Source: Tolypothrix tenuis PCC 7101 (GTDB lineage: Bacteria > Cyanobacteriota > Cyanobacteriia > Cyanobacteriales > Nostocaceae). From it: a stretch of DNA of 10,755 nucleotides. The DNA lies in contig AP018248.1 of assembly GCA_002368295.1 (NCBI GenBank), positions 4,225,396 through 4,236,150 of the forward strand, given 5' to 3'. A program made the position numbers and the translations under genes. Shown here in pieces: positions 1-10,755 of the stretch (position 1 is its first letter; each line of letters opens with the position of its first letter). The notes below the pieces were generated by a model. That model was not told the DNA's origin. It worked only from the letters and a program-made list of their open reading frames with translations, and ran no database searches.

Positions 1-378
1 GATGTTGCTAATAGCCTCAACAATCTGGCGCAACTCTACAAATCCCAAGGCAGATACAGCGAAGCCGAACCTTTGTATGTGCAAGCTTTATCACTCAGGC
101 GACGCAGCTTGGGGGAATCACATCCAGATGTTGCTAATAGCCTCAACAATCTGGCGGGACTCTACGATTCCCAAGGTAGATACAGCGAAGCCGAACCTTT
201 GTATGTGCAAGCTTTAGAACTAACGCGACGCAGCTTGGGGGGATCACATCCAGATGTTGCTACTAGCCTCAACAATCTGGCGCAACTCTATCGTTCCCAA
301 GGAAGATACAGCGAAGCTGAACCTTTGTATGTGCAAGCTTTGGATATTTGTGAGCGTAGTTTAGGAGTGGGTCATCCT
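1..378 (+). repeat. 126-nt (42-codon) in-frame tandem repeat, 3 copies, encoding the TPR modules
   Basis: Copies at 1-126, 127-252 and 253-378. Copies 1 and 2 differ at about 11 of 126 positions by hand count. Confidence 0.9.
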
Positions 379-435
379 TCAACAATAATAGTACGAAGCA
401 ATTATGCTATTTTCTTAAAGCAAGCATATCTTTAA
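1..435 (+). CDS. TPR (TPR_12 / kinesin-light-chain-type) repeat protein, C-terminal 144 codons; 5' end lies outside the window
   Basis: Frame 1 is open from nt 1 to the TAA at 433-435. The track ORF 73..435 is only the part after an internal TTG. The translation repeats a 42-aa module, DVA(N/T)SLNNLAxLYxSQGRYSEAEPLYVQALxLxRRSLGxSHP, three times. This is the classic NNLAxLYxxQGxYxEAEPLY TPR signature. Confidence 0.85.
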   Translation, partial: DVANSLNNLAQLYKSQGRYSEAEPLYVQALSLRRRSLGESHPDVANSLNNLAGLYDSQGRYSEAEPLYVQALELTRRSLGGSHPDVATSLNNLAQLYRSQGRYSEAEPLYVQALDICERSLGVGHPSTIIVRSNYAIFLKQAYL

Positions 436-500
436 AATAGCATTTGCTTCATCACTGTAAAAATTCAAGTTCTCAACCGCATCAATCAAGCTTTTATCTC

Positions 501-700
501 CGAGTTCCGTGTTCAGAACTTGAAGTTTCCTGTTGCAAACGAGAACGTTCCTGTTTTTAGCTCGAAGTTTTGTGTTCAGAACTCGAAGCTTCCTGTTCCA
601 AATGAGAACATTGCTGTTTTTAGCTCGAAGTTCCGTGTTCAGAACTCGAAGTTTCCTGTTGCAAACGAGAACATTGCTGTTTTTAGCTCGAAGTTTCCTG
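501..700. repeat. Intergenic tandem repeat, 63-bp period, about 3.2 copies, with an internal ~21-bp sub-period
   Basis: Copies at 501-562 (62 nt), 563-625 and 626-688, plus a partial copy at 689-700. Copies 2 and 3 differ at 5 of 63 positions. Each unit splits into three related 21-mers: CGAAGTTCCGTGTTCAGAACT, CGAAGTTTCCTGTTGCAAACG and AGAACATTGCTGTTTTTAGCT. Confidence 0.9.
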
Positions 701-997
701 CTCTGAGGTGGAATGATGGAGTTATGAAGGCGATGCTCTCTCAAAATTGAATAAACTTGGTGTTAAAGATAATTATATCGACTGTCTTAAAAGTCAAGCG
801 ATGCACTTGACATTCAAGACAGCCGCTACCAGCACAAAATCTGAATCTTATTATTTACAGTTTTTATTATTTTTTGATTTTTAACAATGAATTAAGAATC
901 AAAATCTATCTTTTGGCTGAAGTATTTGCGATACCAATATCAATATTCTGATAATAAGTGCTAAAAATAGATTTATTTTTGGCAGATAATCTTACTA

Positions 998-1037
998 TTT
1001 ATGCTAATAATCACACATTTATGCCAATAATCACACA
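998..1037. repeat. Tandem direct repeat, 2 x 20 bp (TTTATGC[T/C]AATAATCACACA)
   Basis: 998-1017 and 1018-1037 are identical at 19 of 20 positions. They lie in the AT-rich region about 490 bp upstream of the regulator gene. Confidence 0.85.
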
Positions 1038-1448
1038 AATCTAGATTTTTTAGCACATAAGCTGTTAAAAGTATTTATTCGCAAAAGGAGTAATCTTGAT
1101 ATTTATCAAAACAACTGAAAACACAGTTTAAATTAAGCTAGGCTGACAGTATCCATTTTGAAAAACTTTTAAACCGATAGCTTTTTAAACCTGTAATTTG
1201 TGATTGCAGTAGATTATCTTGTCGCGGCATGAGTTCAGAAAATTAATCTAAATTACAATAAACTACTGTTTTTCAGGTTAAGGCGGTTTATATAGCAGTT
1301 CTCAATCAGTTGTATAAAATAGGCTAGATTTATAAATTATTATTTCCTGTTCCCTAACTCAACAAGTAATTTTACAACTACTACTAATATTGCTATATAG
1401 TTTTTCATCTTTAATATAGGACTCATATTTGATTTGAATTTCAGGTAG

Positions 1449-1506
1449 GATGCGTTAGCGATAGCGTAACGCATCAGCGCCAAAGCTTTTCGTGCGTTAC
1501 TATAAT
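1449..1506 (+). promoter_or_regulatory. Operator-like palindrome plus a third half-site abutting a consensus -10 box, upstream of the regulator gene
   Basis: GATGCGTTA (1449-1457) and TAACGCATC (1467-1475) form a perfect 9-bp inverted repeat around a 9-nt spacer. A third GCGTTAC copy at 1494-1500 is followed directly by TATAAT (1501-1506), 19 nt before the ATG at 1525. There is no convincing -35 hexamer and no obvious Shine-Dalgarno sequence. Confidence 0.3.
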
Positions 1507-1524
1507 TTGCGGTTATGAGCCGCC

Positions 1525-3990
1525 ATGAGAATTTTATTAGTTGAAGATGATGAAGCGATCGCAGAACCACTTGCTAAATCTTTGACAACTCAACACTATG
1601 CTGTTGATGTTGCCAAAGATGGGCAAGAAGGTTGGGATTTGGCAGAGTTATTTACCTATGACTTAATTCTGCTAGATGTGATGTTACCCAAGCTGAACGG
1701 CATTAATTTCTGTCAGAGATTACGTGCAAACGGTAATCAAACACCTGTTCTTTTATTAACCGCCCAAGATAATAGTGTAAATAAAGTCATGGGTTTGGAT
1801 GCAGGTGCAGATGATTATGTTGCCAAGCCTTTTGATTTTCAGGAATTATTAGCCCGTATTCGTGCTTTATTACGTCGGGGTGGTTCTACTTTACCGCCGC
1901 TTTTAGAGTGGAAAAATTTGCGCTTAGATCCCAGCAGTTGCGAAGTCACCTGTGATGGAAAACTTGTGCATTTGACTCCCAAAGAATACGGCTTGCTTGA
2001 GCTTTTTCTTCGCAATAGTCAGCGAATTTTTAGCTGTAGTGCCTTAATAGATCATCAATGGTCATTTGAAGAACCGCCTACAGATGATACTGTCAGATCC
2101 CACATCAAAGGTTTACGGCAAAAACTGAAAGCAGCAGGAGTTGCAGACGAGCCTATTGAGACAGTTTATGGCATTGGCTATAAACTCAAGCCAGAACAAA
2201 AGAATGTAGACCAAGATAAAAAAGCCAAGGGATTAGGAAAAACCAAATTAACCTCCTCATCTCCCTCGCCTGTACCACAACAAAATCAGGTAGCGACTGG
2301 GGTGAGCAAAGTCTGGGAAGCAGTAGCGCAGAAACTTGAAGAACGAGTGGCGACGAATGAGCAAGCCTTAACGCTTTTGCAACAAGGTCAACTTAGTGAG
2401 GAAATGCGAGCTAGCGCGAGAATGGAAGCTCATAAGCTAGCTGGATCTATGGGGATGTTTGGTTCTGATGAAGGTTCTCAGTTAGCGCGAGAAATAGAAT
2501 CTCTGTGGGAAATTCAGACTCCGCTTGAGCCGCAGGTAATACAGCAGCTATCGCAATTTGTGGCGGCGTTGCGTCAAGAATTGCAACTGTTAAATTCTGA
2601 GTATAAGCAGGAGTCGCAGCCAGAACATCCCGTACAAGGAAATGGTGTTTTTGGGCATAGCGAAGAAATTACCAATGCCCCATCCCCTATGCCCGAAGCG
2701 GCGGGGCGATTGTCTGTTTCCACCCACAAGAAAATCGAGTTTCCCACCGCTTTCAATCAACGCCCCTTACTGTTGGTTGTGAATCGCGATCGCAAATTAA
2801 CTGAAGCTTTAGCCAAAGAGACTGATATTTGGGGCATACAAGTACGCTTCGCACAAACTGCGCGATCGCCCATTTCCTCCGCTAGAGAATTGATTGCTGA
2901 ATATTCCCCAGATGTCGTATTACTCGACCTTGGCAGCACTGACACCTCAGAAACTAATCTCGCTTTACTAGCAGAACTCAATGCTAGTAACTCCTCAATA
3001 CCAGTGATAGTTTTAACAGATAAAGATAGTTTGCTTGACCGGGTCAAAGTGGCGCGCTTGGGTGGTAGCGGGATTTTACAAAAGCCTGTTTCCCCTATCC
3101 AAGTATTAGAAACAGTAAATCAAATATTACAGCGCACTCGCCCTACAGCAGCAAAGGTGATGGTTGTCGATGACGATCCCCATATCTTAGCTGCTCTGCA
3201 AACCTTACTCGTGCCTTGGGGAATGAAGGTTTACACCTTAGAGAACCCCTTGCGGTTTTTGGAAGCGATCGCAGCTGCTCAACCAGATCTGTTGATTTTA
3301 GATGTGGAAATTCCAGAGATTAGCGGTATAGAACTATGCCAAGTTGTGAGGAATGATCCCCAATGGAGTGGGCTGCCCATCTTGTTTTTGACTGCTCATA
3401 ACGATACCAAAACTAGACAGCAGGTCTTCGCCGCAGGTGCCGATGACTACATCAGCAAACCCATTGTTGAACCAGAACTAATTACGAGGATACTAAATCG
3501 TTTAGAGCGATCGCGCTGGCTACGCAATCTCGCAGAATTGGATGGACTAACCCAGGTAGCGAATCGGCGTAAATCTACTCAGGATTTAAATTGGTATCTG
3601 CAATTAAGCGATCGCCACCAACAACCGCTTTGCTTCGCTATTGTGGAGCTAGACAGCCTCAAAGAAATTAATCACAAGCATGGTCATGCAGTAGGCGATC
3701 GCGTGTTATCCCAACTAGGGGAACTGTTACGACAAACTTTCCACACTCAAGATGTAGTTGGTCGTTGGGGAGGTACAGAATTTGTGGTGGGAATGGCAGG
3801 AATGACCAAAACTGATGGAGAACGGCGGCTTTTGGAACTGCTCAAAAGGCTACGCCAAATTGAATTCACGGGTGCTAATAGCCAAAAGTTTCACGTTACC
3901 TTCCGTACAGCCGTAGTTGAGTATCCTCAAGATGGTGCTAATCTGCAAGCGCTTTATCAGGCGGCGGATCGGGGAATGGGGAATGGGTAA
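1525..3990 (+). CDS. Composite two-component response regulator: REC - OmpR/PhoB wHTH - HPt - degenerate REC - REC - GGDEF (GGTEF variant)
   Basis: 821-aa ORF running from ATG 1525 to TAA 3988-3990. REC motifs: LLVEDDE, DLILLD(51)VMLP, LLLTA, AKP. wHTH motifs: LTPKEYGLLELFLRN, TVRSHIKGLRQKL, ETVYGIGYKL. HPt motif: AH(303)KLAGSMGMFGS. Third REC: VMVVDDDP, DLLILD(593)VEIP, LFLTAH, ISKP. GGDEF domain: GLTQVANRR, ELDSLKEINHKHGHAVGDRVL, RWGGTEFVV. Confidence 0.9.
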   Translation: MRILLVEDDEAIAEPLAKSLTTQHYAVDVAKDGQEGWDLAELFTYDLILLDVMLPKLNGINFCQRLRANGNQTPVLLLTAQDNSVNKVMGLDAGADDYVAKPFDFQELLARIRALLRRGGSTLPPLLEWKNLRLDPSSCEVTCDGKLVHLTPKEYGLLELFLRNSQRIFSCSALIDHQWSFEEPPTDDTVRSHIKGLRQKLKAAGVADEPIETVYGIGYKLKPEQKNVDQDKKAKGLGKTKLTSSSPSPVPQQNQVATGVSKVWEAVAQKLEERVATNEQALTLLQQGQLSEEMRASARMEAHKLAGSMGMFGSDEGSQLAREIESLWEIQTPLEPQVIQQLSQFVAALRQELQLLNSEYKQESQPEHPVQGNGVFGHSEEITNAPSPMPEAAGRLSVSTHKKIEFPTAFNQRPLLLVVNRDRKLTEALAKETDIWGIQVRFAQTARSPISSARELIAEYSPDVVLLDLGSTDTSETNLALLAELNASNSSIPVIVLTDKDSLLDRVKVARLGGSGILQKPVSPIQVLETVNQILQRTRPTAAKVMVVDDDPHILAALQTLLVPWGMKVYTLENPLRFLEAIAAAQPDLLILDVEIPEISGIELCQVVRNDPQWSGLPILFLTAHNDTKTRQQVFAAGADDYISKPIVEPELITRILNRLERSRWLRNLAELDGLTQVANRRKSTQDLNWYLQLSDRHQQPLCFAIVELDSLKEINHKHGHAVGDRVLSQLGELLRQTFHTQDVVGRWGGTEFVVGMAGMTKTDGERRLLELLKRLRQIEFTGANSQKFHVTFRTAVVEYPQDGANLQALYQAADRGMGNG
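1528..2190 (+). other. Domain: receiver (aa 2-117, phospho-Asp D51 = GAT 1675-1677) plus OmpR/PhoB-type winged-helix DNA-binding domain (aa 126-222)
   Basis: Motifs as listed for the CDS. On its own this segment is a complete OmpR-family regulator. Confidence 0.85.
2308..2574 (+). other. Domain: HPt (histidine phosphotransfer), candidate phospho-His H303 = CAT 2431-2433
   Basis: EAHKLAGSMGMFGSDEGSQLAREIE fits the HxxKGxxxxxG HPt signature, as in the CheA P1, ArcB and Ypd1 types. The flanking sequence looks helical. Confidence 0.7.
2629..2757 (+). repeat. Diverged copy of the dispersed hairpin/heptamer repeat element seen at 8164-8371, embedded in frame in the CDS (aa 369-411)
   Basis: 2681-2757 aligns without gaps to 8295-8371 with 63 of 77 identities by hand count. 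2629-2660 matches 8181-8208 plus 8223-8224 at 27 of 30 aligned positions with a 2-nt indel. 2661-2680 matches 8273-8293 at about 18 of 21. The total length is 129 nt, which is 43 codons. Confidence 0.8.
2764..3132 (+). other. Domain: degenerate receiver (aa 414-536), with the acidic pair replaced (VVNRDR instead of VDDD)
   Basis: LLLVVNRDRKL, DVVLLD(468)LG, VIVLT(498)D and LQK(520)P. The Asp, Thr and Lys positions are kept but the Mg-binding acidic pair reads N-R. Confidence 0.6.
3154..3504 (+). other. Domain: canonical receiver (aa 544-660, D593)
   Basis: KVMVVDDDPHIL, PDLLILDVEIPEISG, ILFLTAHND and DYISKP. Confidence 0.85.
3526..3969 (+). other. Domain: GGDEF-type, with GGTEF at the signature position (3769-3783) and HTQD in place of the RxxD I-site
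   Basis: DGLTQVANRR, ELDSLKEINHKHGHAVGDRVL and HTQDVVGRWGGTEFVVGM. The codons are GGA GGT ACA GAA TTT. Confidence 0.8.
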
Positions 3991-4110
3991 TGGGGAATGG
4001 GTAATGGGTAATGAGTAATGAGTAATGAGTAATGAGTAATGGGTAATGAGTAATGGGTAATGAGTAATGGGTAATGAGTAATGGGTAATGAGTAATGAGT
4101 AATGGGTAAT
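3971..4110. repeat. STRR-type heptamer tandem array, 20 copies of G(G/A)G(G/T)AAT
   Basis: Unit-by-unit count: GGGGAAT x3, GGGTAAT x8, GAGTAAT x9, all in strict 7-nt register from 3971 to 4110. The TAA stop of the upstream CDS (3988-3990) lies in the third unit. Confidence 0.95.
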
Positions 4111-4203
4111 TGGGTGTTTGGGGTTTGTCATTAATTATTTCTCCCCTGCTCCCTGCCCCCCTGCCTTACTCCGTCTCCCCTTATTGTTAAGGTAGGATGC
4201 TAT

Positions 4204-4560
4204 ATGTTTGAATTATTAGATATTTTTTTTACATCTATAAGCTTTATATCTCAGTTAAATTACCATTTCGGCAATCAAGGGTTGATATGGTTACATTTGT
4301 TATCTGATTGCTTAATTTCTCTGGGGTATTATGCGATTTCTGCGATATTGGTCTATTTCGGGAATCAGCGCCAAGATTCGCCTGCAAAAAATCTGTTGCT
4401 GTTGTTTGGAGCGTTTCTAGCGGTTTGTGGCACAACTCATCTGATGGCAGTTTGGACATTTTGGGATGCAAATTATTGGGTATTTGGGGTTCAGAAAGCC
4501 CTTACTGCAATAATTTCAATTTATACTTTTGTAGCGCTATTAAAATTATTGCCCAAATCC
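4204..4560 (+). other. Domain: three-helix membrane module resembling the ethylene/Cu(I)-binding domain of plant ETR1 and cyanobacterial SynEtr1
   Basis: LSD(35)CLISLGYYAISAILVYF, FGAFLAVC(75)GTTH(79)LMAVWTF and QK(98)ALTAIISIYTF. Compared with ETR1 from memory: ISD(25)FFIAIAYFSIPLELIYF, FGAFIVLC(65)GATH(69)LINLWTF and AK(91)VLTAVVS. The Asp-to-Cys spacing is 40 residues in both. Confidence 0.75.
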
Positions 4561-7500
4561 CTAGAAAAACCTAGTAAAACTGAGTTAGAAGCAGCTAATC
4601 AAAAATTGCAGCAGCAAATCAGCGAATATCAAAGGCTTGAGGAGGCTTTGCGCCAAAGCGAATATCAGTATGTAACTTTAGCTCAAACCGCACCAGTGGG
4701 CATTTTCCGTACCGATGCTGCTGGAAACTGCACTTTTATGAATGAGCTAGCCTGTCAGATTATGGGTGCTTCTTTAGAAAAGGCGCTGGGAAAAGGCTGG
4801 ATAGAATCATTGCATCCAGAAGACCGCGATCGCGTGATTAGGCAATGGCAAGAAACTACACAGCAAAACTTACCCTTTAAATGCGAGCATCGTTTTCGCA
4901 ATCCCCAGGGTAAAACTGTTTGGGTGTTAACTCAAGCAGTACCGGAGGCGGGAAGTCAAGGAGAATTTACAAATTTTATTGGCACTATTACAAATATTAG
5001 CGATCGCAAACGCACTGAAGAAGCTCTCAGTCAAAGTGAAGCCACCCTCCGCAGCTTCTTTAATAGCGCCTCAATGCTGATGGGAATTGTGGAAATTGTG
5101 GATCATGATGTCTTGCATATTTCTGATAACCTAGCAGCCGCGAACTTTTATGGACTAACACCAGCCGCAATGCAGAATCGGCTAGCCAGCGAAATGGGTG
5201 CGCCGCAAGAGTATATCAACCAATGGATTGAGAAATATCGGGAAGCTGAACACACCCATGCTCCCGTTCGCTTTGAATATACTCACGAGACTCCCACCGC
5301 TAAAAAATGGCTGTCAGCGACAGTTTCAGCAATTAATAGCGATTGCAGTGGTCGTCAACGATTTTCTTACGTAGTTGAAGATATTAGCGATCGCAAATCA
5401 GCAGAGGAAGAATTACAAAAACAAGCATTTCTCCTGGACTTGACTCACGACTGCATCATGGTTCGCAATTTCAACGGTGAGATTGACTTTTGGAATCGTG
5501 GTGCAGAGGAGATGTACGGTTGGACGAAACAAGAAGCGATCGGCAAAATTTCTCATGATTTCTTGCAAACTCAATTTCCCCAACCGCTAGCCGAAATTGA
5601 AGCCGAACTTTTGCAAACCGGACGTTGGTCAGGTGAACTCGTACATACTAAACGTGATGGTACTCCTATTGTGGTGTCGAGTAGTTGGGCGTTACAGCGC
5701 GATGAACAAGGTAAACCAGAGAGAACTCTGGAAATTAATAACGATATTACCGAACGCAAGCGCGCTGAAGAAGAACTTCGCCACCTCAGCACAGCCCTAA
5801 CAAGCGCAGTAGAAGGTATCTCACAGTTAGATAAGGAAGGACGTTATATCAAGGTCAATCCCGCTTATGCCAACATGGCTGGTTATCAGCCAGAGGAAAT
5901 GATTGGTGTGGACTGGCTATTGACTGTCCATCCAGAAGATGCAGAAAAATTGCGGGTTGCGTACCAACAAATGCTAGTTAATGGCAAAGTGGAAGCGGAA
6001 GCTAGAGGCGTGCGGAAAGATAAAACAGTTTTTGATAAACAAGTAGTGATGGTCACAGCCTATGATCGCCAACAGCAATTCATCGGCCATTATTGCTTTA
6101 TGAAAGACATTAGCGATCGCCGCGAAATTGATCGCCTCAAAGATGAATTTGTCTCGATAGTTAGCCATGAATTGCGAACACCCCTCACTTCTATTTCCGG
6201 TGCATTAGATTTATTAGCAGGTGGAGTGCTGCAAACCCAACCAGAAGAAGCGCAACGGATGTTAAATATTGCGGCGAGTAATACCGATAGGCTAGTACGT
6301 CTAATTAATGACATCCTCGATATCGAGCGCATTGAGTCTGGTAAGGTACAAATGACTCCGGAACACTGCGATGCTGCCGATTTGATGAATCAATCAATAG
6401 AAACAGTAGAGGAAATGGCAGAGCAAGCAGGGGTAAAATTAGCAGTTTATCCCCTATCCGCGCCCCTTTGGGCTGATCCAGACCGCATTATTCAAGTTTT
6501 CACCAACTTACTCAGCAATGCGATTAAATTTTCCCCTGAGGGTTCTACGGTTTCATTGAGTGCGGAAATTACAGCCGAGAAAGCAGCACCCTCCAGCAAA
6601 CAAATTTTGTTCAAAGTTAAAGACCAAGGTCGAGGTATCCCAGCAGAGAAACTAGAATCGATTTTTGAGCGTTTTGGACAAGTTGATGCCTCAGACTCCC
6701 GCCAAAAAGGCGGTACAGGTTTAGGTTTAGCTATTTGTCGCAGTATTTTGCAGCATCATCAAGGGCAAATTTGCGTTGAAAGTACCTTAGGAGAAGGCAG
6801 CACATTCTTCTTTACCTTGCCTATTGCCTCAAAAGATGACACAGAAACTATAGAACCAGAAAACACAGGCGATCGCAAAAATATCAATCCATCTTTACTT
6901 CCAACAGAGAATAAATTCGCTGTTCTCCCTTTAGTAATTGAGTGTGACGATGACCCCTCAGTGCGGGTTGTCGTGCAAACCATGCTAGAACGACAGGGTT
7001 ATCGCGTCTTAGCAGCTGCATCAGGACAAGAAGCTGTAGAACAGGCAAAATTGCATCATCCTGATGCAATTATTCTCAACTTGATGATGCCAGATATGAA
7101 CGGTTGGGAAACCCTAGCGATTCTCAAACAGCAGCCACACACCCAAAACATCCCGGTGATTATTCTCAGTGGTTTGTTACCCGATGCTCATAAAAGTCTG
7201 CCACACAACATTAGCGACTGGATTGTCAAACCTCCCACTAGCAAGTTGTTGTACCAAGCCTTAGAAAAAGCTACCGCTAGCCAAAATCAATCAATCAAAG
7301 TTTTGATTATTGAAGACGACACAGATTTGGCACAGGTATTGATTGCTTTATTCAATCGTCACAACATCCTCACCTTTTATGCCCAAACCGGAAAAGAAGC
7401 TATTCAAGTCAGCCAGAACATCATCCCTGACTTATTAGTACTGGATTTGGGATTGCCAGAAAATGACGGTTTTGCCGTAGTCGATTGGCTACGACAACAT

Positions 7501-7707
7501 CAACGCCTATGTCACGTGCCTTTAGTTGTGTACACAGCACGCGATTTAGATGATAGCGATCGCGATCGCTTAAAGTTAGGGCAAACCCTCTTCCTCACTA
7601 AAGGGCGCATTACTCCCCAGGAATTTGAACAGCGAGTGATTAACTTACTCAACCGCATGATTGGTAGCAATAGCCAAGTTAGCCCCTCCGGAGAATTCAA
7701 AATTTAA
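4204..7707 (+). CDS. Hybrid sensor histidine kinase: ETR1-like ethylene-binding membrane domain - coiled coil - 4 PAS - HisKA - HATPase_c - receiver (Asn at phospho-site) - receiver
   Basis: 1167-aa ORF. AGGTAGGA lies 7 nt upstream of the ATG at 4204. H-box SIVSH(655)ELRTPLTSI, N-box NLLSNAIKFSP, G1 KDQGRGIP, G2 GGTGLGLAICRSI. The PAS blocks end in ISDRK, ISDRK, ITERK and ISDRR junctions. Confidence 0.92.
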   Translation: MFELLDIFFTSISFISQLNYHFGNQGLIWLHLLSDCLISLGYYAISAILVYFGNQRQDSPAKNLLLLFGAFLAVCGTTHLMAVWTFWDANYWVFGVQKALTAIISIYTFVALLKLLPKSLEKPSKTELEAANQKLQQQISEYQRLEEALRQSEYQYVTLAQTAPVGIFRTDAAGNCTFMNELACQIMGASLEKALGKGWIESLHPEDRDRVIRQWQETTQQNLPFKCEHRFRNPQGKTVWVLTQAVPEAGSQGEFTNFIGTITNISDRKRTEEALSQSEATLRSFFNSASMLMGIVEIVDHDVLHISDNLAAANFYGLTPAAMQNRLASEMGAPQEYINQWIEKYREAEHTHAPVRFEYTHETPTAKKWLSATVSAINSDCSGRQRFSYVVEDISDRKSAEEELQKQAFLLDLTHDCIMVRNFNGEIDFWNRGAEEMYGWTKQEAIGKISHDFLQTQFPQPLAEIEAELLQTGRWSGELVHTKRDGTPIVVSSSWALQRDEQGKPERTLEINNDITERKRAEEELRHLSTALTSAVEGISQLDKEGRYIKVNPAYANMAGYQPEEMIGVDWLLTVHPEDAEKLRVAYQQMLVNGKVEAEARGVRKDKTVFDKQVVMVTAYDRQQQFIGHYCFMKDISDRREIDRLKDEFVSIVSHELRTPLTSISGALDLLAGGVLQTQPEEAQRMLNIAASNTDRLVRLINDILDIERIESGKVQMTPEHCDAADLMNQSIETVEEMAEQAGVKLAVYPLSAPLWADPDRIIQVFTNLLSNAIKFSPEGSTVSLSAEITAEKAAPSSKQILFKVKDQGRGIPAEKLESIFERFGQVDASDSRQKGGTGLGLAICRSILQHHQGQICVESTLGEGSTFFFTLPIASKDDTETIEPENTGDRKNINPSLLPTENKFAVLPLVIECDDDPSVRVVVQTMLERQGYRVLAAASGQEAVEQAKLHHPDAIILNLMMPDMNGWETLAILKQQPHTQNIPVIILSGLLPDAHKSLPHNISDWIVKPPTSKLLYQALEKATASQNQSIKVLIIEDDTDLAQVLIALFNRHNILTFYAQTGKEAIQVSQNIIPDLLVLDLGLPENDGFAVVDWLRQHQRLCHVPLVVYTARDLDDSDRDRLKLGQTLFLTKGRITPQEFEQRVINLLNRMIGSNSQVSPSGEFKI
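4666..6123 (+). other. Domain array: four PAS/PAC modules (aa ~155-268, 280-397, 405-520, 528-640)
   Basis: Each module is about 115 aa with PAS-like cores, for example APVGIFRTDAAGNCTFMN, DCIMVRNFNGEIDFWN and EGISQLDKEGRYIKVN. PAC-like ends (FIGTITNISDRK, TLEINNDITERK, FIGHYCFMKDISDRR) are followed by charged coiled linkers (EEAL, EEEL). Confidence 0.8.
6130..6825 (+). other. Domains: HisKA (H655 = CAT 6166-6168) and HATPase_c
   Basis: The H, N, G1 and G2 boxes listed for the CDS. Confidence 0.9.
6922..7269 (+). other. Domain: receiver with Asn (AAC 7078-7080) at the phospho-acceptor position
   Basis: VIECDDDPSV, PDAIILN(959)LMMPDMNG, VIILSG and IVKP. The canonical motif would read LD. Confidence 0.7.
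7297..7653 (+). other. Domain: canonical C-terminal receiver (D1081 = GAT 7444-7446)
   Basis: KVLIIEDDTDL, PDLLVLDLGLPENDG, LVVYTARD and FLTKG. Confidence 0.85.
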
Positions 7708-8163
7708 GCCGAAAATTCTCTCCCCTACTCCCTCTGCGGCCTAAGGTGTACACCAAGTCTTATAACTTAGCCCCGTAAAGTTTCGATCCTCCCTGATTCC
7801 CCTTTTTAAGGGTATTTAGGGTATCTAACCAAACGTAAATCATTTTTTATAAAGACCAGATAAATTATCTATTAAGAATACATTAACCTTCGTAAAAATA
7901 CTGGGATATTGCTCTGGTACATGATAAATTTTCATCAAATTTAAGTATTAATCATGAATTGTCTAAATTAGTAATCAATAAAAATACAAACAAACGTTTT
8001 ATTGATTAGTCATGACAGTATCGGGGATTTTCCCTGAAACTCTTATGCTTAGGTAACAAACGTCATCAGCTGATTCCTCTTTAGGGTGTCTAGGTGCTTC
8101 TATATTTCTCTATGTACATCATTGGTTTTCTTCTCCCTAATGCCAAAATGCTGATTACTAATT

Positions 8164-8371
8164 CCCAATGAAAAACTCCACCCACAAGGTGATGGAGTTT
8201 TTGGGCATTGGGAATTGGGCATAGGGGAGGCAGTGCGTTGCTGGTTTCCAGTATTGTGCAAACTGCCGTCAGGGGAAAGAAAATACCAATGCCCTATGCC
8301 CTATGCCCCAAGCGGCGGGGCGGCTATCCCTCTCCACCCACAAGGGGATGGAGTTTCCCGCCGCTTTCAAT
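8164..8371. repeat. Compound dispersed-repeat element: two related hairpins, heptamer arms and a nested 42-nt hairpin insertion
   Basis: Hairpin 1: CCCAATG-AAAAACTCCA (8164-8180) pairs with TGGAGTTTTT-ggg-CATTGGG (8193-8212). Hairpin 2: AAGCGGCGGG (8310-8319) pairs with CCCGCCGCTT (8357-8366), with an inner stem CTCCA (8332-8336) / TGGAG (8349-8353). Heptamer-like arms GGGCAT(T/A)GGG on the left face CCCTATGCCC on the right. The central hairpin GGCAGT (8229-8234) / ACTGCC (8262-8267) is flanked by the direct repeat AGGGGA (8223-8228 and 8271-8276). Confidence 0.8.
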
Positions 8372-8519
8372 GAATAGTAATTGGCAGCTTTTTTATGTTC
8401 ATCTCTCCAATTCATAATTAATACTGAAATTTCACATCAATTGTGTACATAGCTCTGGCAACAATCGCAAGCTATAACAAATCACTTTATCTATTCCTGG
8501 ATTTAATTAAGGTATGAAC

Positions 8520-9731
8520 ATGAGTCAAGAAAAATATTTGATGACACCCAAGCTACATTCTATTTCCCATAATCAATCACGCATTTTGATAGTATCAATG
8601 CGTGAAGTTGCTAAGTTAGTAGGGTTTTGTAGCTTATATGAATTTGAAGATGTCATCTGCGATGCTGATGCTGCTGATATGCTCACACCTTTGAGTACAG
8701 ATGATGGTATCGTTAGAAAAATCTACAAATTAGCTAAGTATTTAACTAATTCTAAAAAATTAGCAAATTTCTTAGTACCGGGAACTAATCCATACTTTAT
8801 TGAACAAGAGTATGAATTGTTTTTTCCAGTATTTAATTCTCCCTTTGAACTTTTCGCACTACACGCGTTTAAAAATTGGCGACAAAAATGTAGCCAAGCA
8901 GTTTGTTATATAGATGAATTTTGGGAAACATATCTTCAGCCATCCAGTCTCTATTTTCTGGAATATTTAAAAGATTTCGACCATATTTTTCTCGGCAATA
9001 AAAATTCAGTTGAAGCAGTTGCTAAAATTACAGGTCGTCCTTGTAGCTATCTACCACCTGGGATTGATACATTAAAATTCTGTCCATATCCACAGTTACC
9101 TCACCGCAGTATTGATGTTTCCTATTTGGGTCGGCGTTCACCTGTAACTCATCAAGCTCTATTAGAGTATGCACAACAGCAACAAATTTTTTATTACTAC
9201 GATACAATCAAAGTCTCCGGAACTAAAAATGCGGCTAAACAACAAACATTTGCGGTGAATAATGCCCGAGAACACCGCATTTTGTTTGCTAATTTAAACA
9301 AGAGAAGCCGTTATTTCTTTGCTAACCGCGCACGCATTAACGAAGCAGAAGCGACAAAAAATAAACAAGAGTTTGGCCCACGCTTCTTTGAGGGTGCGGC
9401 TGCTGGTGCAGTCCTCATTGGTGATCCACCAATGACAGAGGAATTCTACAAACATTTTGATTGGCCGGATGCAATTATCAAAGTTCCCTTTGATGCTCCA
9501 GAAATTGGCGAGATTATTTCTGATTTGGATTCACAGCCTGAGCGCTTGGCAAGAATTAGCAGAGATAATGTTGTCAATACATTACTCCGACACGACTGGG
9601 TATATCGCTTACGCACAGTATTTGAGACAATAGATGTTAAACCTAGCCAAATCATGTTAGCTAGAGAAGCTAAGTTAAAGAAACTAGCTTATGAAATCCA
9701 GCACACATCAAATGCATCATTAGTTAATTAG
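8520..9731 (+). CDS. CgeB-family / Glyco_trans_1_2-like putative glycosyltransferase (hypothetical protein)
   Basis: The longest ORF starts at ATG 8514. ATG 8520 is preferred for two reasons. AAGGT (8509-8513) sits 6 nt upstream of it, and the paralogue at 10454 aligns residue for residue from this Met. The C-terminal part, FGPRFFEGAAAGAVLIGDP...FDWPDAIIKV...ISDLDSQPERLARISRDNVVNTLLRHDWVYRL, resembles the R-x-FE-x-x-A-x-G...HT/W-x-x-R pattern of the Glyco_trans_1_2 (CgeB-like) family. The upstream motif IDVSYLGRR also fits. The assignment comes from remembered motifs only. Confidence 0.6.
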   Translation: MSQEKYLMTPKLHSISHNQSRILIVSMREVAKLVGFCSLYEFEDVICDADAADMLTPLSTDDGIVRKIYKLAKYLTNSKKLANFLVPGTNPYFIEQEYELFFPVFNSPFELFALHAFKNWRQKCSQAVCYIDEFWETYLQPSSLYFLEYLKDFDHIFLGNKNSVEAVAKITGRPCSYLPPGIDTLKFCPYPQLPHRSIDVSYLGRRSPVTHQALLEYAQQQQIFYYYDTIKVSGTKNAAKQQTFAVNNAREHRILFANLNKRSRYFFANRARINEAEATKNKQEFGPRFFEGAAAGAVLIGDPPMTEEFYKHFDWPDAIIKVPFDAPEIGEIISDLDSQPERLARISRDNVVNTLLRHDWVYRLRTVFETIDVKPSQIMLAREAKLKKLAYEIQHTSNASLVN

Positions 9732-9778
9732 AAACTCATGATTATTTTGTACAAGCCATTTTAAGTGCCTTGTGTATG

Positions 9779-9814
9779 GGGAAAGTAAATTGAAACTTTT
9801 CCCATTTTATTTTT
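9779..9814 (+). terminator. Candidate intrinsic terminator downstream of the 8520-9731 CDS
   Basis: The stem GGGAAAGT (9779-9786) pairs with ACTTTTCCC (9795-9803): 8 bp with one bulged T. The loop is AAATTGAA and the tail is ATTTTATTTTT (9804-9814). Confidence 0.5.
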
Positions 9815-9833
9815 GCAGAATCAAATTATATTC

Positions 9834-9978
9834 AGGACTTACGCAACTGGCACAGTGATCCTCTGGCATAAGAGTCAAGAGTCAAGAGTCAAGGGTCAAA
9901 AATTTAGGTTTTTTGGACTCTTGACATTTGACCCTGGACAAACATAAACGAAAAAAATATGACACTTGCGTAAGTCCT
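9834..9978. mobile_element. MITE-like non-autonomous element (145 bp) with perfect 13-bp terminal inverted repeats and an internal heptamer hairpin
   Basis: AGGACTTACGCAA (9834-9846) is the exact reverse complement of TTGCGTAAGTCCT (9966-9978). Inside, AAGAGTC x3 plus AAGGGTC (9870-9897) face the inverted partner GGACTCTTGACATTTGACCCT (9915-9935). There is no ORF. Confidence 0.5.
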
Positions 9979-10453
9979 AATATTTTATAAAATATTCGGC
10001 TGATTGATATTTATGATTGAAAACATAGCAATTTAAAATCAAGAATGCAACAGTAGGGAGACAGCAATGCTGTGACCTCTAGAATATATTGATGTTTCGC
10101 AAACATTATTTGATTAAATTTTAAAAAGCTTTTCAGCAAAAGATTAGCAACTAACCTATAAGTTTTTCTAAATTACTGACATTCTCTTACTCCTTGTCTA
10201 TTTTTAGATAGTAGTGTATAGATATAATTAAAATTTATTCTGGCTCTACTAGGTTCTCAAATTTCATAATTCTTTAGTTTCTAACTGTAGATTACGTGTT
10301 TTGATATAAGAAGTTCCTCAAAGCTTGTGAAAGTCAAAAATCACATTTCAAAATTCAATTTTCAATCATAAAAATCCTAAATTTGGGAAAAGAAACAATT
10401 TACTAGCGACAAGTAGCTTGCTGTAAAACACTTTATTAAATCAGGGTAATATC

Positions 10454-10755
10454 ATGACCAACAATAAATATTTAATAAAACCTAAATTTAATTCTTTTTC
10501 TAATGAAAAATCACGCATTTTGTTAGTATCAATGCGTGAACTGGCTAACTTAGTGGCTTTTTGTACCTTATATGAATTTGAAGATGTACTATATGATACC
10601 GATGCTGTTGATATGGTTCAACCATTGAGTGCTAACGACGGTATCTTAAGAAAAATCTACAAACTAGCTAAGTATTTAACTAACTCCAAGCAATTGGCTG
10701 AGTTACTTGTTCCAGCGAATCATCCATACTTGCTTGAGCAAGAATATGAACTATT
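10454..10755 (+). CDS. Tandem paralogue of the 8520-9731 protein, N-terminal 100 codons; 3' end outside the window
   Basis: The frame is open from ATG 10454 to the window end. It is absent from the ORF track because no stop codon is reached. AGGG lies 8 nt upstream. The translation MTNNKYLIKPKFNSFSNEKSRILLVSMRELANLVAFCTLYEFEDV...RKIYKLAKYLTNSK...EQEYEL is 67 of 100 identical, without gaps, to residues 1-100 of the 8520 protein by hand count. Confidence 0.8.
   Translation, partial: MTNNKYLIKPKFNSFSNEKSRILLVSMRELANLVAFCTLYEFEDVLYDTDAVDMVQPLSANDGILRKIYKLAKYLTNSKQLAELLVPANHPYLLEQEYEL

What the first reader, a model, noticed from the sequence alone, without database searches (positions are those of the whole stretch)
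1525..7707. The adjacent regulator and hybrid kinase contain every part of a His-Asp-His-Asp phosphorelay, possibly branched
The two same-strand genes are separated only by a 213-nt spacer filled with a heptamer array. Together they contain a kinase His (H655), a canonical kinase-borne receiver (D1081), an HPt His (H303 on the regulator) and two canonical terminal receivers (D51 gating the wHTH, D593 gating the GGDEF). Each protein also carries one degenerate receiver. The parsimonious inference is a relay H655 -> D1081 -> H303 -> D51 and/or D593. The input would be an ethylene-receptor-like domain plus PAS sensors, and the output would be dual. The pairing is inferred only from adjacency and domain complementarity.
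Basis: inference. Interest (0 to 1): 0.65.

Follow-up and report, generated by a model that had tools for sequence, protein, structure and literature searches.

The report
RcaC-like regulator paired with hybrid kinase
Two neighbouring cyanobacterial signalling genes really do hold every part of a four-step phosphate relay and stay together in many genomes, so they are very likely partners, but this is a variant of a known relay type and its supposed second output (c-di-GMP synthesis) looks inactive.

Summary
So are the 213-nt spacer and its heptamer array.

The pairing now rests on more than adjacency. Regulators with this architecture (REC-wHTH-HPt-REC-REC-GGDEF) have a histidine kinase gene directly downstream in 19 of 27 informative loci. 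In 15 of those 19 the kinase is kinase core-REC-REC. In all 16 such kinases checked, the first receiver has Asn at the phospho-site and the second has Asp. Some relatives have overlapping stop and start codons.

Three corrections apply.
1. Relatives have a very conserved single-domain receiver after the kinase. It resembles the receiver that follows the kinase next to GGDEF-less, RcaC-type regulators. It is missing from the window and from 10 kb downstream in the source genome. The route through D1081 is therefore plausible but not the only one.
2. The GGDEF domain is degenerate: GGTEF, no RxxD, and a last helix replaced by the heptamer array. Dual output through c-di-GMP synthesis is unlikely.
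3. The "degenerate" receivers are conserved and under purifying selection, so they are functional modules rather than decay.

I score it as a new variant of a known kind, of moderate interest.

The parts
1525..3990 (+). Complex response regulator gene, 821 aa: REC1-wHTH-HPt-REC2(degenerate)-REC3-GGDEF(degenerate).
   Evidence: ORF, Pfam. It is 96% identical to a Tolypothrix sp. PCC 7910 protein. The family is widespread in filamentous cyanobacteria.
1525..1878 (+). REC1, a canonical receiver. D8/D9, D51 (codon 1675-1677), T79, K101.
   Evidence: D51 is kept in 34 of 35 family members.
1960..2187 (+). OmpR/PhoB-type winged-helix DNA-binding domain, the likely real output.
   Evidence: Pfam Trans_reg_C, 73.6 bits. 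NCBIfam matches of PhoB/RppA/CreB type over residues 1-222.
2314..2577 (+). HPt domain, with H303 (codon 2431-2433) in HKLAGSMGMFG.
   Evidence: Pfam Hpt 34.3 bits against cut-off 24.6. H303 is invariant in 26 of 26 and 35 of 35.
2663..2760 (+). 98-nt dispersed repeat inserted in frame in the linker between HPt and REC2. A second copy lies at 8277-8374.
   Evidence: Self-BLAST, 84% identity. It corresponds to a roughly 40-aa insertion seen only in the window and PCC 7910 proteins.
2758..3138 (+). REC2, a degenerate receiver. The acidic pair is replaced by N420/R421, and D468 is kept.
   Evidence: Across the family the acidic pair, Thr and Lys positions vary and D468 is kept in 30 of 35. It is still constrained: dN/dS 0.10 against PCC 7910.
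3154..3510 (+). REC3, a canonical receiver. D549-551, D593 (codon 3301-3303), T623, K645.
   Evidence: D593 is kept in 35 of 35. dN = 0 against PCC 7910.
3535..3978 (+). Degenerate GGDEF domain. The motif is RWGGTEF (T751, codon 3775-3777). E708 sits at the position I align with PleD D327. HTQD replaces RxxD. The last helix is missing.
   Evidence: (profile positions 2-151 of 161). dN/dS 0.06.
3971..4115 (+). Heptamer tandem array (GGGTAAT/GAGTAAT, 20.6 copies). It overlaps the regulator's 3' end and supplies its stop codon.
   Evidence: PCC 7910 has a different heptamer (GGGGATT/GGGGACT) at the same place.
3991..4203 (+). Intergenic spacer of 213 nt: a G-rich array, then a C-rich stretch, then the purine-rich AAGGTAGGA upstream of the kinase ATG.
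   Evidence: The consensus scan finds no promoter-like or terminator-like site on the + strand here.
4204..7707 (+). Hybrid histidine kinase gene, 1167 aa: ETR1_N-PAS(3-4)-HisKA-HATPase_c-REC1(Asn pseudo-receiver)-REC2.
   Evidence: It is 95% identical to a PCC 7910 protein. The exact protein is encoded on NCBI record AP018307.1.
4282..4563 (+). Ethylene-receptor-like membrane domain, with D35, C75, H79 and K98.
   Evidence: Pfam ETR1_N, 113 bits. Residues. The roles of ETR1 D25, C65, H69 and K91 are from PMC10266040.
4651..6123 (+). PAS sensor region with 3-4 PAS folds.
   Evidence: Pfam PAS, PAS_3, PAS_4 and PAS_9. Own HMMs.
6139..6825 (+). Kinase core: HisKA with H655 (codon 6166-6168), plus HATPase_c.
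   Evidence: The His is kept in 16 of 16 partner kinases.
6925..7281 (+). Kinase REC1, a pseudo-receiver. Asn959 (codon 7078-7080) sits at the phospho-site, and DDD and Lys are kept.
   Evidence: Asn is found in 16 of 16 kinase core-REC-REC partner kinases. dN/dS 0.05.
7297..7653 (+). Kinase REC2, a canonical receiver. E1037/D1038, D1081 (codon 7444-7446), Thr, K1133.
   Evidence: Asp is kept in 16 of 16. It is the most conserved domain of the set, with mean pairwise identity 0.75.

Best explanation
**What it is.** The two genes are the first two genes of a conserved cyanobacterial signalling cluster. In relatives the full cluster runs: complex regulator, hybrid kinase, small single-domain receiver, a protein of about 145 aa, then a Mo-nitro_C protein.

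**How it most likely works.** The two proteins act as partners in a multistep His-Asp-His-Asp phosphorelay.
1. The kinase senses through a copper/ethylene-receptor-like membrane domain and its PAS domains.
2. It autophosphorylates on H655.
3. It passes the phosphoryl group to a receiver Asp. In this genome that is most likely its own second receiver, D1081.
4. H303 of the HPt domain carried by the regulator takes the group.
5. H303 delivers it to D51, which switches the winged-helix DNA-binding domain. It possibly also delivers it to D593.

**Output and accessory modules.** The output is transcriptional. The GGDEF domain is most likely not a cyclase. The Asn pseudo-receiver on the kinase, REC2 on the regulator and the degenerate GGDEF are conserved accessory or regulatory modules.

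**Shown versus inferred.**
- Shown: the domains and residues, the conserved gene linkage, residue invariance, and purifying selection.
- Inferred: every phosphotransfer step, the signal, and the DNA targets.
For: **Domains and residues:**

**Synteny**
- A kinase gene lies directly downstream in 19 of 27 informative loci of this regulator family (21 of 27 if a split and a truncated kinase are counted). In 15 of the 19 it is kinase core-REC-REC.
- Named genomes with the same order: Tolypothrix PCC 7910 (15), Nostoc NIES-4103 (16), Nostoc flagelliforme (18), Leptolyngbya ohadii with a 4-nt overlap (19), Chlorogloeopsis fritschii PCC 9212 (50).
- The longest-contig lengths listed for closest regulator and kinase homologues coincide for at least nine pairs, some as short as 6.8-44 kb.
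- The sensor part of the kinase changes between lineages: ETR1_N+PAS, PAS only, or Ser/Thr kinase-AAA-GAF. The core-REC-REC part and the neighbouring regulator stay.

**Residue invariance:** H-box His 16/16, kinase REC2 Asp 16/16, HPt His 35/35, D51 34/35, D593 35/35.

**Selection:** both genes have dN/dS of about 0.12 against PCC 7910.

**The small receiver is not detected here**
- It is absent from the window.
- It is absent from 10 kb downstream of the kinase in the source record.
- No member from that record appeared among its closest clusters.
- This leaves D1081 as the only receiver in sight to feed the HPt.

**Experimental precedent in a related organism:** in Anabaena CdgK, REC1 is dispensable. 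The phosphoryl group passes from H1149 to REC2 D1604 in vitro; mutants of the HPt His (H1757) and of CdgS D60 share the small-cell phenotype, and the authors model the onward steps H1757 -> D60 (PMC9927289).
Against: - No phosphotransfer was or can be tested here.
- Relatives always carry the small, extremely conserved receiver after the kinase (16/16; 73-100% identity). It averages 53% identity to the receiver found beside GGDEF-less, RcaC-type regulators. In the published Rca and Rfp relays that small protein, not a fused receiver, is the shuttle (PMC5737509). The ancestral route to the HPt may therefore bypass D1081.
- Its absence from this genome is not proven.
- The linkage is not universal. 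The regulator is an orphan in Nostoc NIES-2111, and the kinase cluster lacks the regulator in NIES-3756.
- The 213-nt spacer leaves co-transcription open in this strain.
- A crude mirror-tree comparison did not single out any donor for the HPt.
Confidence: 0.55

Rival explanations
1. Rca-type route. The kinase His phosphorylates the small single-domain receiver, which would be encoded elsewhere in this genome. That receiver shuttles the phosphoryl group to H303 of the regulator. The fused D1081 receiver acts as a phosphate sink or an autoregulatory domain rather than as the donor to the HPt.
For: - The small receiver follows the kinase in 16 of 16 hybrid-kinase loci.
- It is more conserved than any other part, at 73-100% identity over its best 120 hits. 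For example it is 77% identical in Leptolyngbya ohadii, where the regulator is 56% identical.
- It averages 53% identity to the receiver that follows non-hybrid kinases next to GGDEF-less regulators.
- The kinase-small receiver link survives even where the regulator is elsewhere.
- Published models have RcaF and RfpC as shuttles (PMC5737509).
Against: - No such gene is in the window or within 10 kb downstream in the source record.
- None from that record appeared in the closest clusters.
- Kinase REC2 is itself invariant at the Asp and is the most conserved fused domain. That is more than a dispensable sink would need.
Confidence: 0.27
2. Ordinary two-component pair plus extras. H655 phosphorylates D51 of the regulator directly, as in OmpR/PhoB-type pairs. 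The HPt, REC3 and the kinase receivers serve cross-talk from other hybrid kinases, or phosphatase and sink functions.
For: - REC1-wHTH is a standard PhoB/RppA/CreB-like module.
- Adjacent kinase and OmpR-type regulator pairs usually signal directly (general knowledge of two-component systems).
- From memory, not checked here: RcaC D51 was reported as the dominant site, with smaller roles for the HPt His and the C-terminal Asp (Li and Kehoe 2005).
Against: - H303 and D1081 are invariant across the family, which argues that they lie in the main path.
- Hybrid kinases normally phosphorylate their tethered receiver (general knowledge).
- In Anabaena CdgK, the REC2 Asp and the HPt His are both required (PMC9927289).
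Confidence: 0.13
3. Neighbours only. The two genes sit side by side by chance, or share regulation only, and signal in separate pathways.
For: - The 213-nt spacer contains a repeat array.
- The regulator is an orphan in NIES-2111, and the kinase cluster lacks the regulator in NIES-3756.
Against: - The same-strand linkage is conserved across distant cyanobacteria.
- Overlapping reading frames occur in relatives.
- The regulator subtype matches the kinase subtype: the degenerate-GGDEF subtype goes with core-REC-REC kinases in 16 of 22 loci, against 0 of 5 for the canonical-GGEEF subtype (Fisher p = 0.006).
Confidence: 0.04

Closest known systems
RcaE-RcaF-RcaC (type 3 chromatic acclimation, Fremyella diplosiphon) and RfpA-RfpC-RfpB (far-red acclimation)
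   Same: - The large regulator carries an N-terminal receiver, an OmpR-type winged helix and further CheY-like receivers. RcaC is described as having three CheY-like receivers plus a winged helix (PMC4390838).
- The regulator, not the kinase, carries the HPt (for RcaC this is my own knowledge).
- A kinase, a small CheY-like shuttle and the regulator are encoded together, and the published model is a relay through the small receiver (PMC5737509).
- GGDEF-less regulators with the same REC1-wHTH-HPt-REC2-REC3 order sit next to a non-hybrid PAS kinase plus one or two small receivers in 20 of 36 loci.
   Different: - Here the kinase is hybrid, with an Asn pseudo-receiver and a true receiver fused to it.
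- The sensor is ETR1_N plus PAS, not a bilin-binding GAF.
- The regulator carries an extra degenerate GGDEF domain.
- In this family the regulator gene comes before the kinase gene.
- The small receiver is missing from this locus.
- Sequence orthology to RcaC itself was not tested, because no RcaC sequence was available to the tools.
CdgK-CdgS of Anabaena sp. PCC 7120
   Same: - A Nostocales hybrid kinase with kinase core-REC1-REC2, in which REC1 is dispensable and REC2 is the working receiver.
- A His-Asp-His-Asp relay ending on a receiver-GGDEF protein.
- The genes are co-transcribed (PMC9927289).
   Different: - In CdgK the HPt is fused to the kinase, whereas here it sits on the regulator.
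- CdgK REC1 keeps an Asp (D1462), whereas here REC1 has Asn.
- CdgS is a simple, active REC-GGDEF cyclase. Here the GGDEF is degenerate and the regulator also carries a DNA-binding domain.
Ethylene receptors: plant ETR1 and cyanobacterial SynEtr1 (Slr1212)
   Same: - An N-terminal membrane domain matches Pfam ETR1_N (113 bits).
- It has the Asp, Cys, His and Lys that in ETR1 bind copper and ethylene and transmit the signal (D35, C75, H79, K98).
- The domain is fused to a histidine kinase.
   Different: - PAS domains follow, rather than GAF or phytochrome-like domains.
- Two receivers are fused to the kinase.
- The ETR1 Pro36 position is Ser46 here (aligned by eye against ETR1 recalled from memory).
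- Ethylene binding is untested.
- Most related kinases in this cluster lack ETR1_N, so it is a lineage-specific input.
ShkA-ShpA-TacA of Caulobacter crescentus (own knowledge; PDB 6qrj)
   Same: A hybrid kinase of the form DHp-CA-pseudo-receiver-receiver that hands over to a separate HPt carrier. In ShkA the pseudo-receiver is a regulatory module that binds c-di-GMP.
   Different: - Only the kinase core of 6qrj matched by sequence. The receivers did not stand out.
- In that system the HPt is a separate small protein.
- Nucleotide binding by the Asn pseudo-receiver here is pure speculation.
Classical hybrid-kinase relays (ArcB, TorS-TorR, BarA, Sln1-Ypd1-Ssk1)
   Same: His-Asp-His-Asp logic with a receiver tethered to the kinase. 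The kinase core gives sub-threshold NCBIfam hits to ArcB, TorS and BarA models.
   Different: In those systems the HPt is on the kinase or on a free protein. Here it is embedded in the terminal regulator, between its DNA-binding domain and further receivers.

Membership tests
Multistep His-Asp-His-Asp phosphorelay | Kinase with an H-box His in a DHp domain and an ATP-binding CA domain | tested here: met
   HisKA 73.5 bits and HATPase_c 103.8 bits. H655 lies in SHELRTPL.
Multistep His-Asp-His-Asp phosphorelay | Receiver on the kinase with an acidic pocket, a phospho-acceptor Asp, Thr/Ser and Lys | tested here: met
   Kinase REC2 has E1037/D1038, D1081, Thr and K1133. The Asp is kept in 16 of 16 partner kinases.
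Multistep His-Asp-His-Asp phosphorelay | HPt domain with a conserved His | tested here: met
   Pfam Hpt 34.3 bits against cut-off 24.6. H303 is invariant.
Multistep His-Asp-His-Asp phosphorelay | Terminal receiver coupled to an output domain | tested here: met
   REC1 (D51) is followed by Trans_reg_C.
Multistep His-Asp-His-Asp phosphorelay | Demonstrated sequential phosphotransfer between these proteins | not testable with these tools
   This needs purified proteins and labelled ATP.
RcaC/RfpB-type complex regulator systems | Regulator with an N-terminal receiver, an OmpR-type winged helix, an internal HPt and further C-terminal receivers | tested here: met
   The published description of RcaC is in PMC4390838.
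RcaC/RfpB-type complex regulator systems | Small CheY-like shuttle receiver encoded with the kinase and regulator | tested here: not met
   It is present in 16 of 16 related hybrid-kinase loci. It is absent from the window and from 10 kb downstream in the source record.
RcaC/RfpB-type complex regulator systems | Partner kinase is a bilin photoreceptor (GAF/phytochrome-class) | tested here: not met
   Pfam finds no GAF domain. The kinase has ETR1_N and PAS only.
RcaC/RfpB-type complex regulator systems | Sequence orthology to RcaC or RfpB themselves | not tested
   No RcaC or RfpB sequence could be obtained with the tools. Only an architectural comparison was made.
Receiver-controlled diguanylate cyclases (PleD, WspR, CdgS) | GG[D/E]EF active-site motif | tested here: not met
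   The motif is RWGGTEF, with T751. In members with the hybrid-kinase partner the third position is T, A, G, S or R.
Receiver-controlled diguanylate cyclases (PleD, WspR, CdgS) | Metal-binding Asp (PleD D327), the C-terminal Lys/Arg helix that binds phosphate, and the RxxD inhibitory site | tested here: not met
   The window has E708 at the D327 position. The domain ends at profile position 151 of 161, and its tail is replaced by repeat-encoded GMGNG. HTQD stands in place of RxxD. PleD residue numbering is from memory.
Receiver-controlled diguanylate cyclases (PleD, WspR, CdgS) | Cyclase activity | not testable with these tools
   This needs an enzyme assay.
Ethylene-receptor-type sensors (ETR1, SynEtr1) | ETR1_N membrane domain above the curated threshold | tested here: met
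   113 bits against a cut-off of 27, residues 27-120.
Ethylene-receptor-type sensors (ETR1, SynEtr1) | Equivalents of ETR1 Asp25, Cys65, His69 and Lys91 | tested here: met
   D35, C75, H79 and K98. Their roles are from PMC10266040. The alignment to ETR1 was made by eye from a remembered sequence.
Ethylene-receptor-type sensors (ETR1, SynEtr1) | Saturable ethylene binding that depends on copper | not testable with these tools
   This needs a 14C-ethylene binding assay.
ShkA-type hybrid kinases | DHp-CA followed by a pseudo-receiver and then a true receiver | tested here: met
   N959 in REC1 and D1081 in REC2. This holds in 16 of 16 relatives.
ShkA-type hybrid kinases | c-di-GMP binding to the pseudo-receiver relieves auto-inhibition | not testable with these tools
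   Only the kinase core of 6qrj matched by sequence.

The most novel reading that the evidence does not exclude
The three "dead" modules may form a second, nucleotide-dependent control layer on an ethylene/copper-sensing relay. The modules are the invariant-Asn pseudo-receiver on the kinase, REC2 on the regulator, and the degenerate GGDEF. For example, c-di-GMP or GTP could bind to the pseudo-receiver, as in ShkA, or to the GGDEF remnant.

The HPt carried by the regulator may also be a shared docking point for several HPt-less hybrid kinases of Nostocales. That is the kind of "missing HPt" invoked for CdgKA-CdgSHA in Anabaena.

The evidence does not exclude this. All three modules are under purifying selection (dN/dS 0.05-0.10). 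The degenerate GGDEF subtype also co-occurs with the pseudo-receiver kinase (16 of 22 loci against 0 of 5).
Probability: 0.12. Interest if true: 0.7.

Novelty: new variant of a known kind. Interest (0 to 1): 0.4.

Why it matters
Heterocyst-forming cyanobacteria encode many hybrid kinases and few obvious HPt carriers. The recent Anabaena work on CdgKA-CdgSHA explicitly lacks the bridging HPt (preprint 10.64898/2026.09.11.750938).

The regulator-hybrid kinase arrangement studied here recurs across distantly related filamentous cyanobacteria, and I found no paper describing it. Its HPt sits on an RcaC-like DNA-binding regulator. Its partner kinase has a fixed Asn pseudo-receiver.

This family shows one way such relays are wired. 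It also offers a natural comparison. Most relatives have the small shuttle receiver, whereas this strain apparently does not. That contrast could settle whether fused or free receivers feed the HPt.

In a subset of Nostocales the input is an ethylene-receptor-like domain. The family would therefore also be a tractable entry point to what these domains do in bacteria, with a transcriptional read-out.

None of this overturns current ideas. It extends the Rca/Rfp and CdgK paradigms.

Tried and rejected
- **Genome-collection scan with the full regulator alignment.** The tool chose generic receiver motifs (LDAGADDY, MRILLVEDD). I recovered by scanning metagenomes with an alignment restricted to HPt-REC2.
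- **Mirror-tree correlation of HPt distances with candidate donor domains.** Spearman values were 0.38-0.66 for all domains, highest for the regulator's own wHTH. The test does not discriminate.
- **PDB sequence searches of the kinase C-terminus.** ShkA (6qrj) matched only through the kinase core, and gave no support for a specific pseudo-receiver relationship.
- **NCBIfam.** Apart from the generic PAS-domain model (TIGR00229) and PhoB, RppA and CreB equivalog models that the regulator's REC1-wHTH reaches at or above cut-off, no model names either protein. The 145-aa cluster protein has no Pfam or NCBIfam hit.
- **Rfam and tRNA scans of the window.** Nothing found.
- **Promoter and terminator scan and RNA fold of the spacer (z-score +2.8, less stable than shuffles).** Neither gives a signal for or against co-transcription.
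- **Look-up of the Anabaena PCC 7120 kinase homologue P0140.** Not on record.
- **Kehoe and Grossman 1997 (PMC179199).** Not held.
- **Literature searches for this architecture.** No paper found.
- **The dpx operon (PMC13492139).** Considered and rejected. It is a different cluster: a cyanobacteriochrome kinase, a single receiver and a hybrid kinase.
- **"The degenerate domains are decaying".** Considered and rejected because of their low dN/dS.

Full report
**1. Observation**

The window has two long same-strand ORFs, 1525-3990 (821 aa) and 4204-7707 (1167 aa).

Pfam finds the following domains:
- In the first protein: three receiver stretches, an OmpR-type Trans_reg_C domain (146-221), an Hpt domain (264-351; 34.3 bits against a cut-off of 24.6) and a GGDEF domain (671-818).
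- In the second: ETR1_N (27-120; 113 bits against 27), three to four PAS folds, HisKA (646-713), HATPase_c (758-874) and two receiver stretches.

I aligned the five receivers with CheY and PhoB and read the codons.
- Regulator REC1 and REC3 and kinase REC2 have the full acidic pair, Asp, Thr and Lys signature.
- Kinase REC1 has Asn959 at the phospho-site.
- Regulator REC2 keeps Asp468 but has N420/R421 where the metal-binding acidic pair should be.

The spacer is 213 nt. The heptamer array (GGGTAAT/GAGTAAT, 20.6 copies, 3971-4115) begins inside the regulator ORF and supplies its last five residues and its stop codon.

**2. Where the window comes from**

The kinase protein is encoded, residue for residue, on NCBI record AP018307.1, an 8.46-Mb chromosome in assembly GCA_002368055.1. 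The window is 93-95% identical in DNA to Tolypothrix sp. PCC 7910 over 1-999 and 1500-7676. It is not collinear downstream of the kinase.

**3. Is the pairing more than adjacency?**

The regulator architecture is common in filamentous cyanobacteria. All of the best 120 of 5,516 hits cover 65-100% of the query at 50-96% identity.

I fetched loci from named genomes. I also scanned metagenomes with an alignment restricted to the family-specific HPt-REC2 region. I then annotated all 168 loci with HMMs built from the window's own domains.

Of 27 loci with a regulator of the window's type and at least 3 kb of downstream sequence:
- 19 have a histidine kinase gene starting within 1.2 kb on the same strand, and two more have a split or truncated one.
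- 15 of the 19 kinases are kinase core-REC-REC.

The same order is seen in Tolypothrix PCC 7910, Nostoc NIES-4103, Nostoc flagelliforme, Chlorogloeopsis fritschii PCC 9212 and Leptolyngbya ohadii. In L. ohadii the two genes overlap by 4 nt.

The sensory N-terminus of the kinase differs between lineages. It is ETR1_N+PAS in some Nostocales, PAS only in most, and Ser/Thr kinase-AAA-GAF in one. The core-REC-REC part and the neighbouring regulator persist.

The relay residues are nearly invariant: H-box His 16/16, kinase REC2 Asp 16/16, HPt His 35/35, D51 34/35, D593 35/35.

Exceptions exist. The regulator is an orphan in Nostoc NIES-2111. The kinase cluster lacks the regulator in NIES-3756.

I conclude that the two genes are functional partners.

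**4.

In relatives the cluster continues after the kinase with three more genes: a receiver of about 125 aa, a protein of about 145 aa with no Pfam or NCBIfam match, and a Mo-nitro_C (PF06967) protein.
- The small receiver is present after the kinase in 16 of 16 hybrid-kinase loci.
- It is canonical (DD, D, T, K).
- It is remarkably conserved, at 73-100% identity over its best 120 hits.

A sister set of regulators has the same REC1-wHTH-HPt-REC2-REC3 order without GGDEF. In 20 of 36 loci these sit next to a non-hybrid PAS kinase, and most of those kinases are followed by one or two small receivers. The first of those receivers averages 53% identity to the small receiver of the window's family.

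This is the layout of the Rca and Rfp systems. In those, the kinase is said to phosphorylate the complex regulator through the small protein RcaF or RfpC (PMC5737509). RcaC is described there as having three CheY-like receivers plus a winged helix (PMC4390838).

The window's regulator is therefore best described as RcaC-like with an added GGDEF domain. Its kinase is an Rca-type kinase that has acquired two fused receivers.

**5. The small receiver is not at this locus**

No free receiver, 148-aa protein or Mo-nitro_C gene lies in the window. None lies within 10 kb downstream of the kinase in AP018307.1, which instead has two glycosyltransferase-like genes, pdxJ and ycf54. In PCC 7910 the small receiver sits 2.6 kb downstream of the kinase, after inserted genes.

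Among the closest clusters of the small receiver, none of the listed members is attributed to AP018307.1. The one member whose contigs I looked up (P0372) was not found in the sequencing run that holds the window's kinase. This is indirect, so loss is likely but unproven.

Both window genes are under purifying selection against PCC 7910 (dN/dS 0.12 each). If the small receiver is truly gone, D1081 is the only receiver left to feed H303.

**6. The GGDEF output**

The signature is RWGGTEF. From my own knowledge of PleD and WspR, the third position must be Asp or Glu for catalysis.

The window also has:
- E708 at the position I align with PleD D327;
- HTQD instead of an RxxD inhibitory site;
- no C-terminal helix with the phosphate-binding Lys and Arg. 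The Pfam match stops at profile position 151 of 161, and the tail is encoded by the heptamer array.

Across the family there are two subtypes.
- A few members have GGEEF, RxxD and an intact AK..GR tail. None of these is followed by a core-REC-REC kinase.
- Members with that kinase have GG[T/A/G/S/R][E/K/Q/L]F. One further partner locus (L100) reads GGEAF.
- The association is 0 of 5 against 16 of 22 (Fisher p = 0.006).

The domain is nevertheless constrained (dN/dS 0.06). It probably has a non-catalytic role. A c-di-GMP output gated by D593 is unlikely.

**7. The "degenerate" receivers**

Asn at the kinase REC1 phospho-site is fixed in 16 of 16 partner kinases, with the DDD and Lys positions kept. 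Its dN/dS is 0.05, and regulator REC2 has 0.10. These are maintained modules, not decay.

The layout kinase core, pseudo-receiver, receiver recalls two known kinases:
- Anabaena CdgK, where REC1 is dispensable and REC2 D1604 and the HPt His are required (PMC9927289);
- Caulobacter ShkA (own knowledge), although only the kinase core of its structure 6qrj matched by sequence.

**8. Input**

The ETR1_N domain has D35, C75, H79 and K98. These are the equivalents of ETR1 Asp25, Cys65, His69 and Lys91, which bind copper and ethylene and transmit the signal (PMC10266040). Copper and ethylene binding is plausible but untested. The domain is a lineage-specific addition to a conserved relay core.

**9. 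Co-transcription**

A consensus scan finds no promoter-like or terminator-like site on the + strand of the spacer. The spacer RNA is less structured than shuffled controls.

The purine-rich AAGGTAGGA ends 9 nt upstream of the kinase ATG. Relatives have short or negative spacers.

The long spacer here and in PCC 7910 is due to fast-evolving heptamer arrays, with different units in the two strains. Co-transcription is likely but not shown.

**10. Verdict**

- The partner inference is well supported.
- The exact route is open. It could run through D1081, through the small receiver, or directly.
- The dual-output idea is not supported.

The closest known systems are RcaE/F/C and RfpA/C/B, and CdgK-CdgS. 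This is a new variant of that kind and is of moderate interest.

Noticed in passing
window 3971-4115; L081 12455-12590; L170 7920-7950: The heptamer array at the regulator's 3' end has a different unit in the 93-95% identical Tolypothrix PCC 7910 (GGGGATT/GGGGACT against GGGTAAT/GAGTAAT). Chlorogloeopsis fritschii has about four GGTNACA-like heptamers at the same place. In the window and PCC 7910 the array has replaced the last helix of the GGDEF domain. The site looks like a hot spot for fast-evolving heptamer repeats that reshapes a protein C-terminus.
   Followed up: partly
window 2663-2760 and 8277-8374: A 98-nt dispersed repeat (84% identity) has one copy in an intergenic region and one inserted in frame in the regulator's HPt-REC2 linker. 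The in-frame copy adds about 40 residues that only the window and PCC 7910 proteins have. It looks like a small mobile element tolerated inside a coding linker (dN/dS of that stretch is 0.47).
   Followed up: partly
window 8176-8200 and 8332-8356: A 25-nt element, CTCCACCCACAAGG(T/G)GATGGAGTTT, occurs twice (96% identity). It is an imperfect hairpin, and one copy lies inside the 98-nt repeat.
   Followed up: no
window 7676-10755 against L081 and L171: Collinearity with Tolypothrix PCC 7910 ends right after the kinase stop. The source genome has two paralogous glycosyltransferase-like genes here (8514-9731, and a second starting near 10448; 8501-8816 against 10435-10750 is 77% identical). PCC 7910 instead has DUF1963 and acetyltransferase genes, then the small receiver, a 148-aa protein, Mo-nitro_C and gyrA.
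   Followed up: partly
L170 11679-12969; L169 11076-12409; L082 16906-18418; L087 15689-16504: A conserved trio follows the kinase in relatives: a 124-126-aa receiver (73-100% identical across its best 120 hits), a roughly 145-aa protein with no Pfam or NCBIfam match, and a roughly 97-aa Mo-nitro_C (PF06967) protein. The function of the last two is unknown, and their link to a phosphorelay is unexplained.
   Followed up: partly
window 1-435: This is the 3' end of a large TPR-repeat protein gene, built from 126-nt (42-aa) tandem units (2.7 copies at 92% identity in the window). The PCC 7910 homologue has 940 aa and many such units.
   Followed up: no
window 492-700: An intergenic 63-nt tandem repeat, 3.3 copies at 88% identity, is also present in PCC 7910. 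The 109-aa minus-strand ORF at 415-744 that overlaps it is probably spurious.
   Followed up: no
window 1000-1500 and 10001-10500: These are AT-rich stretches (GC 0.31 and 0.27). The first, upstream of the regulator gene, is the only part of 1-7676 that does not align with PCC 7910. It may hold the promoter region and an indel.
   Followed up: no
L088 12463-22358 (JGI metagenome-derived genome): In one relative the regulator is followed by a 2024-aa Ser/Thr-kinase-AAA-GAF-histidine kinase-receiver protein, and then by a second large REC-PAS hybrid kinase. The conserved regulator can evidently be wired to very different sensors.
   Followed up: no
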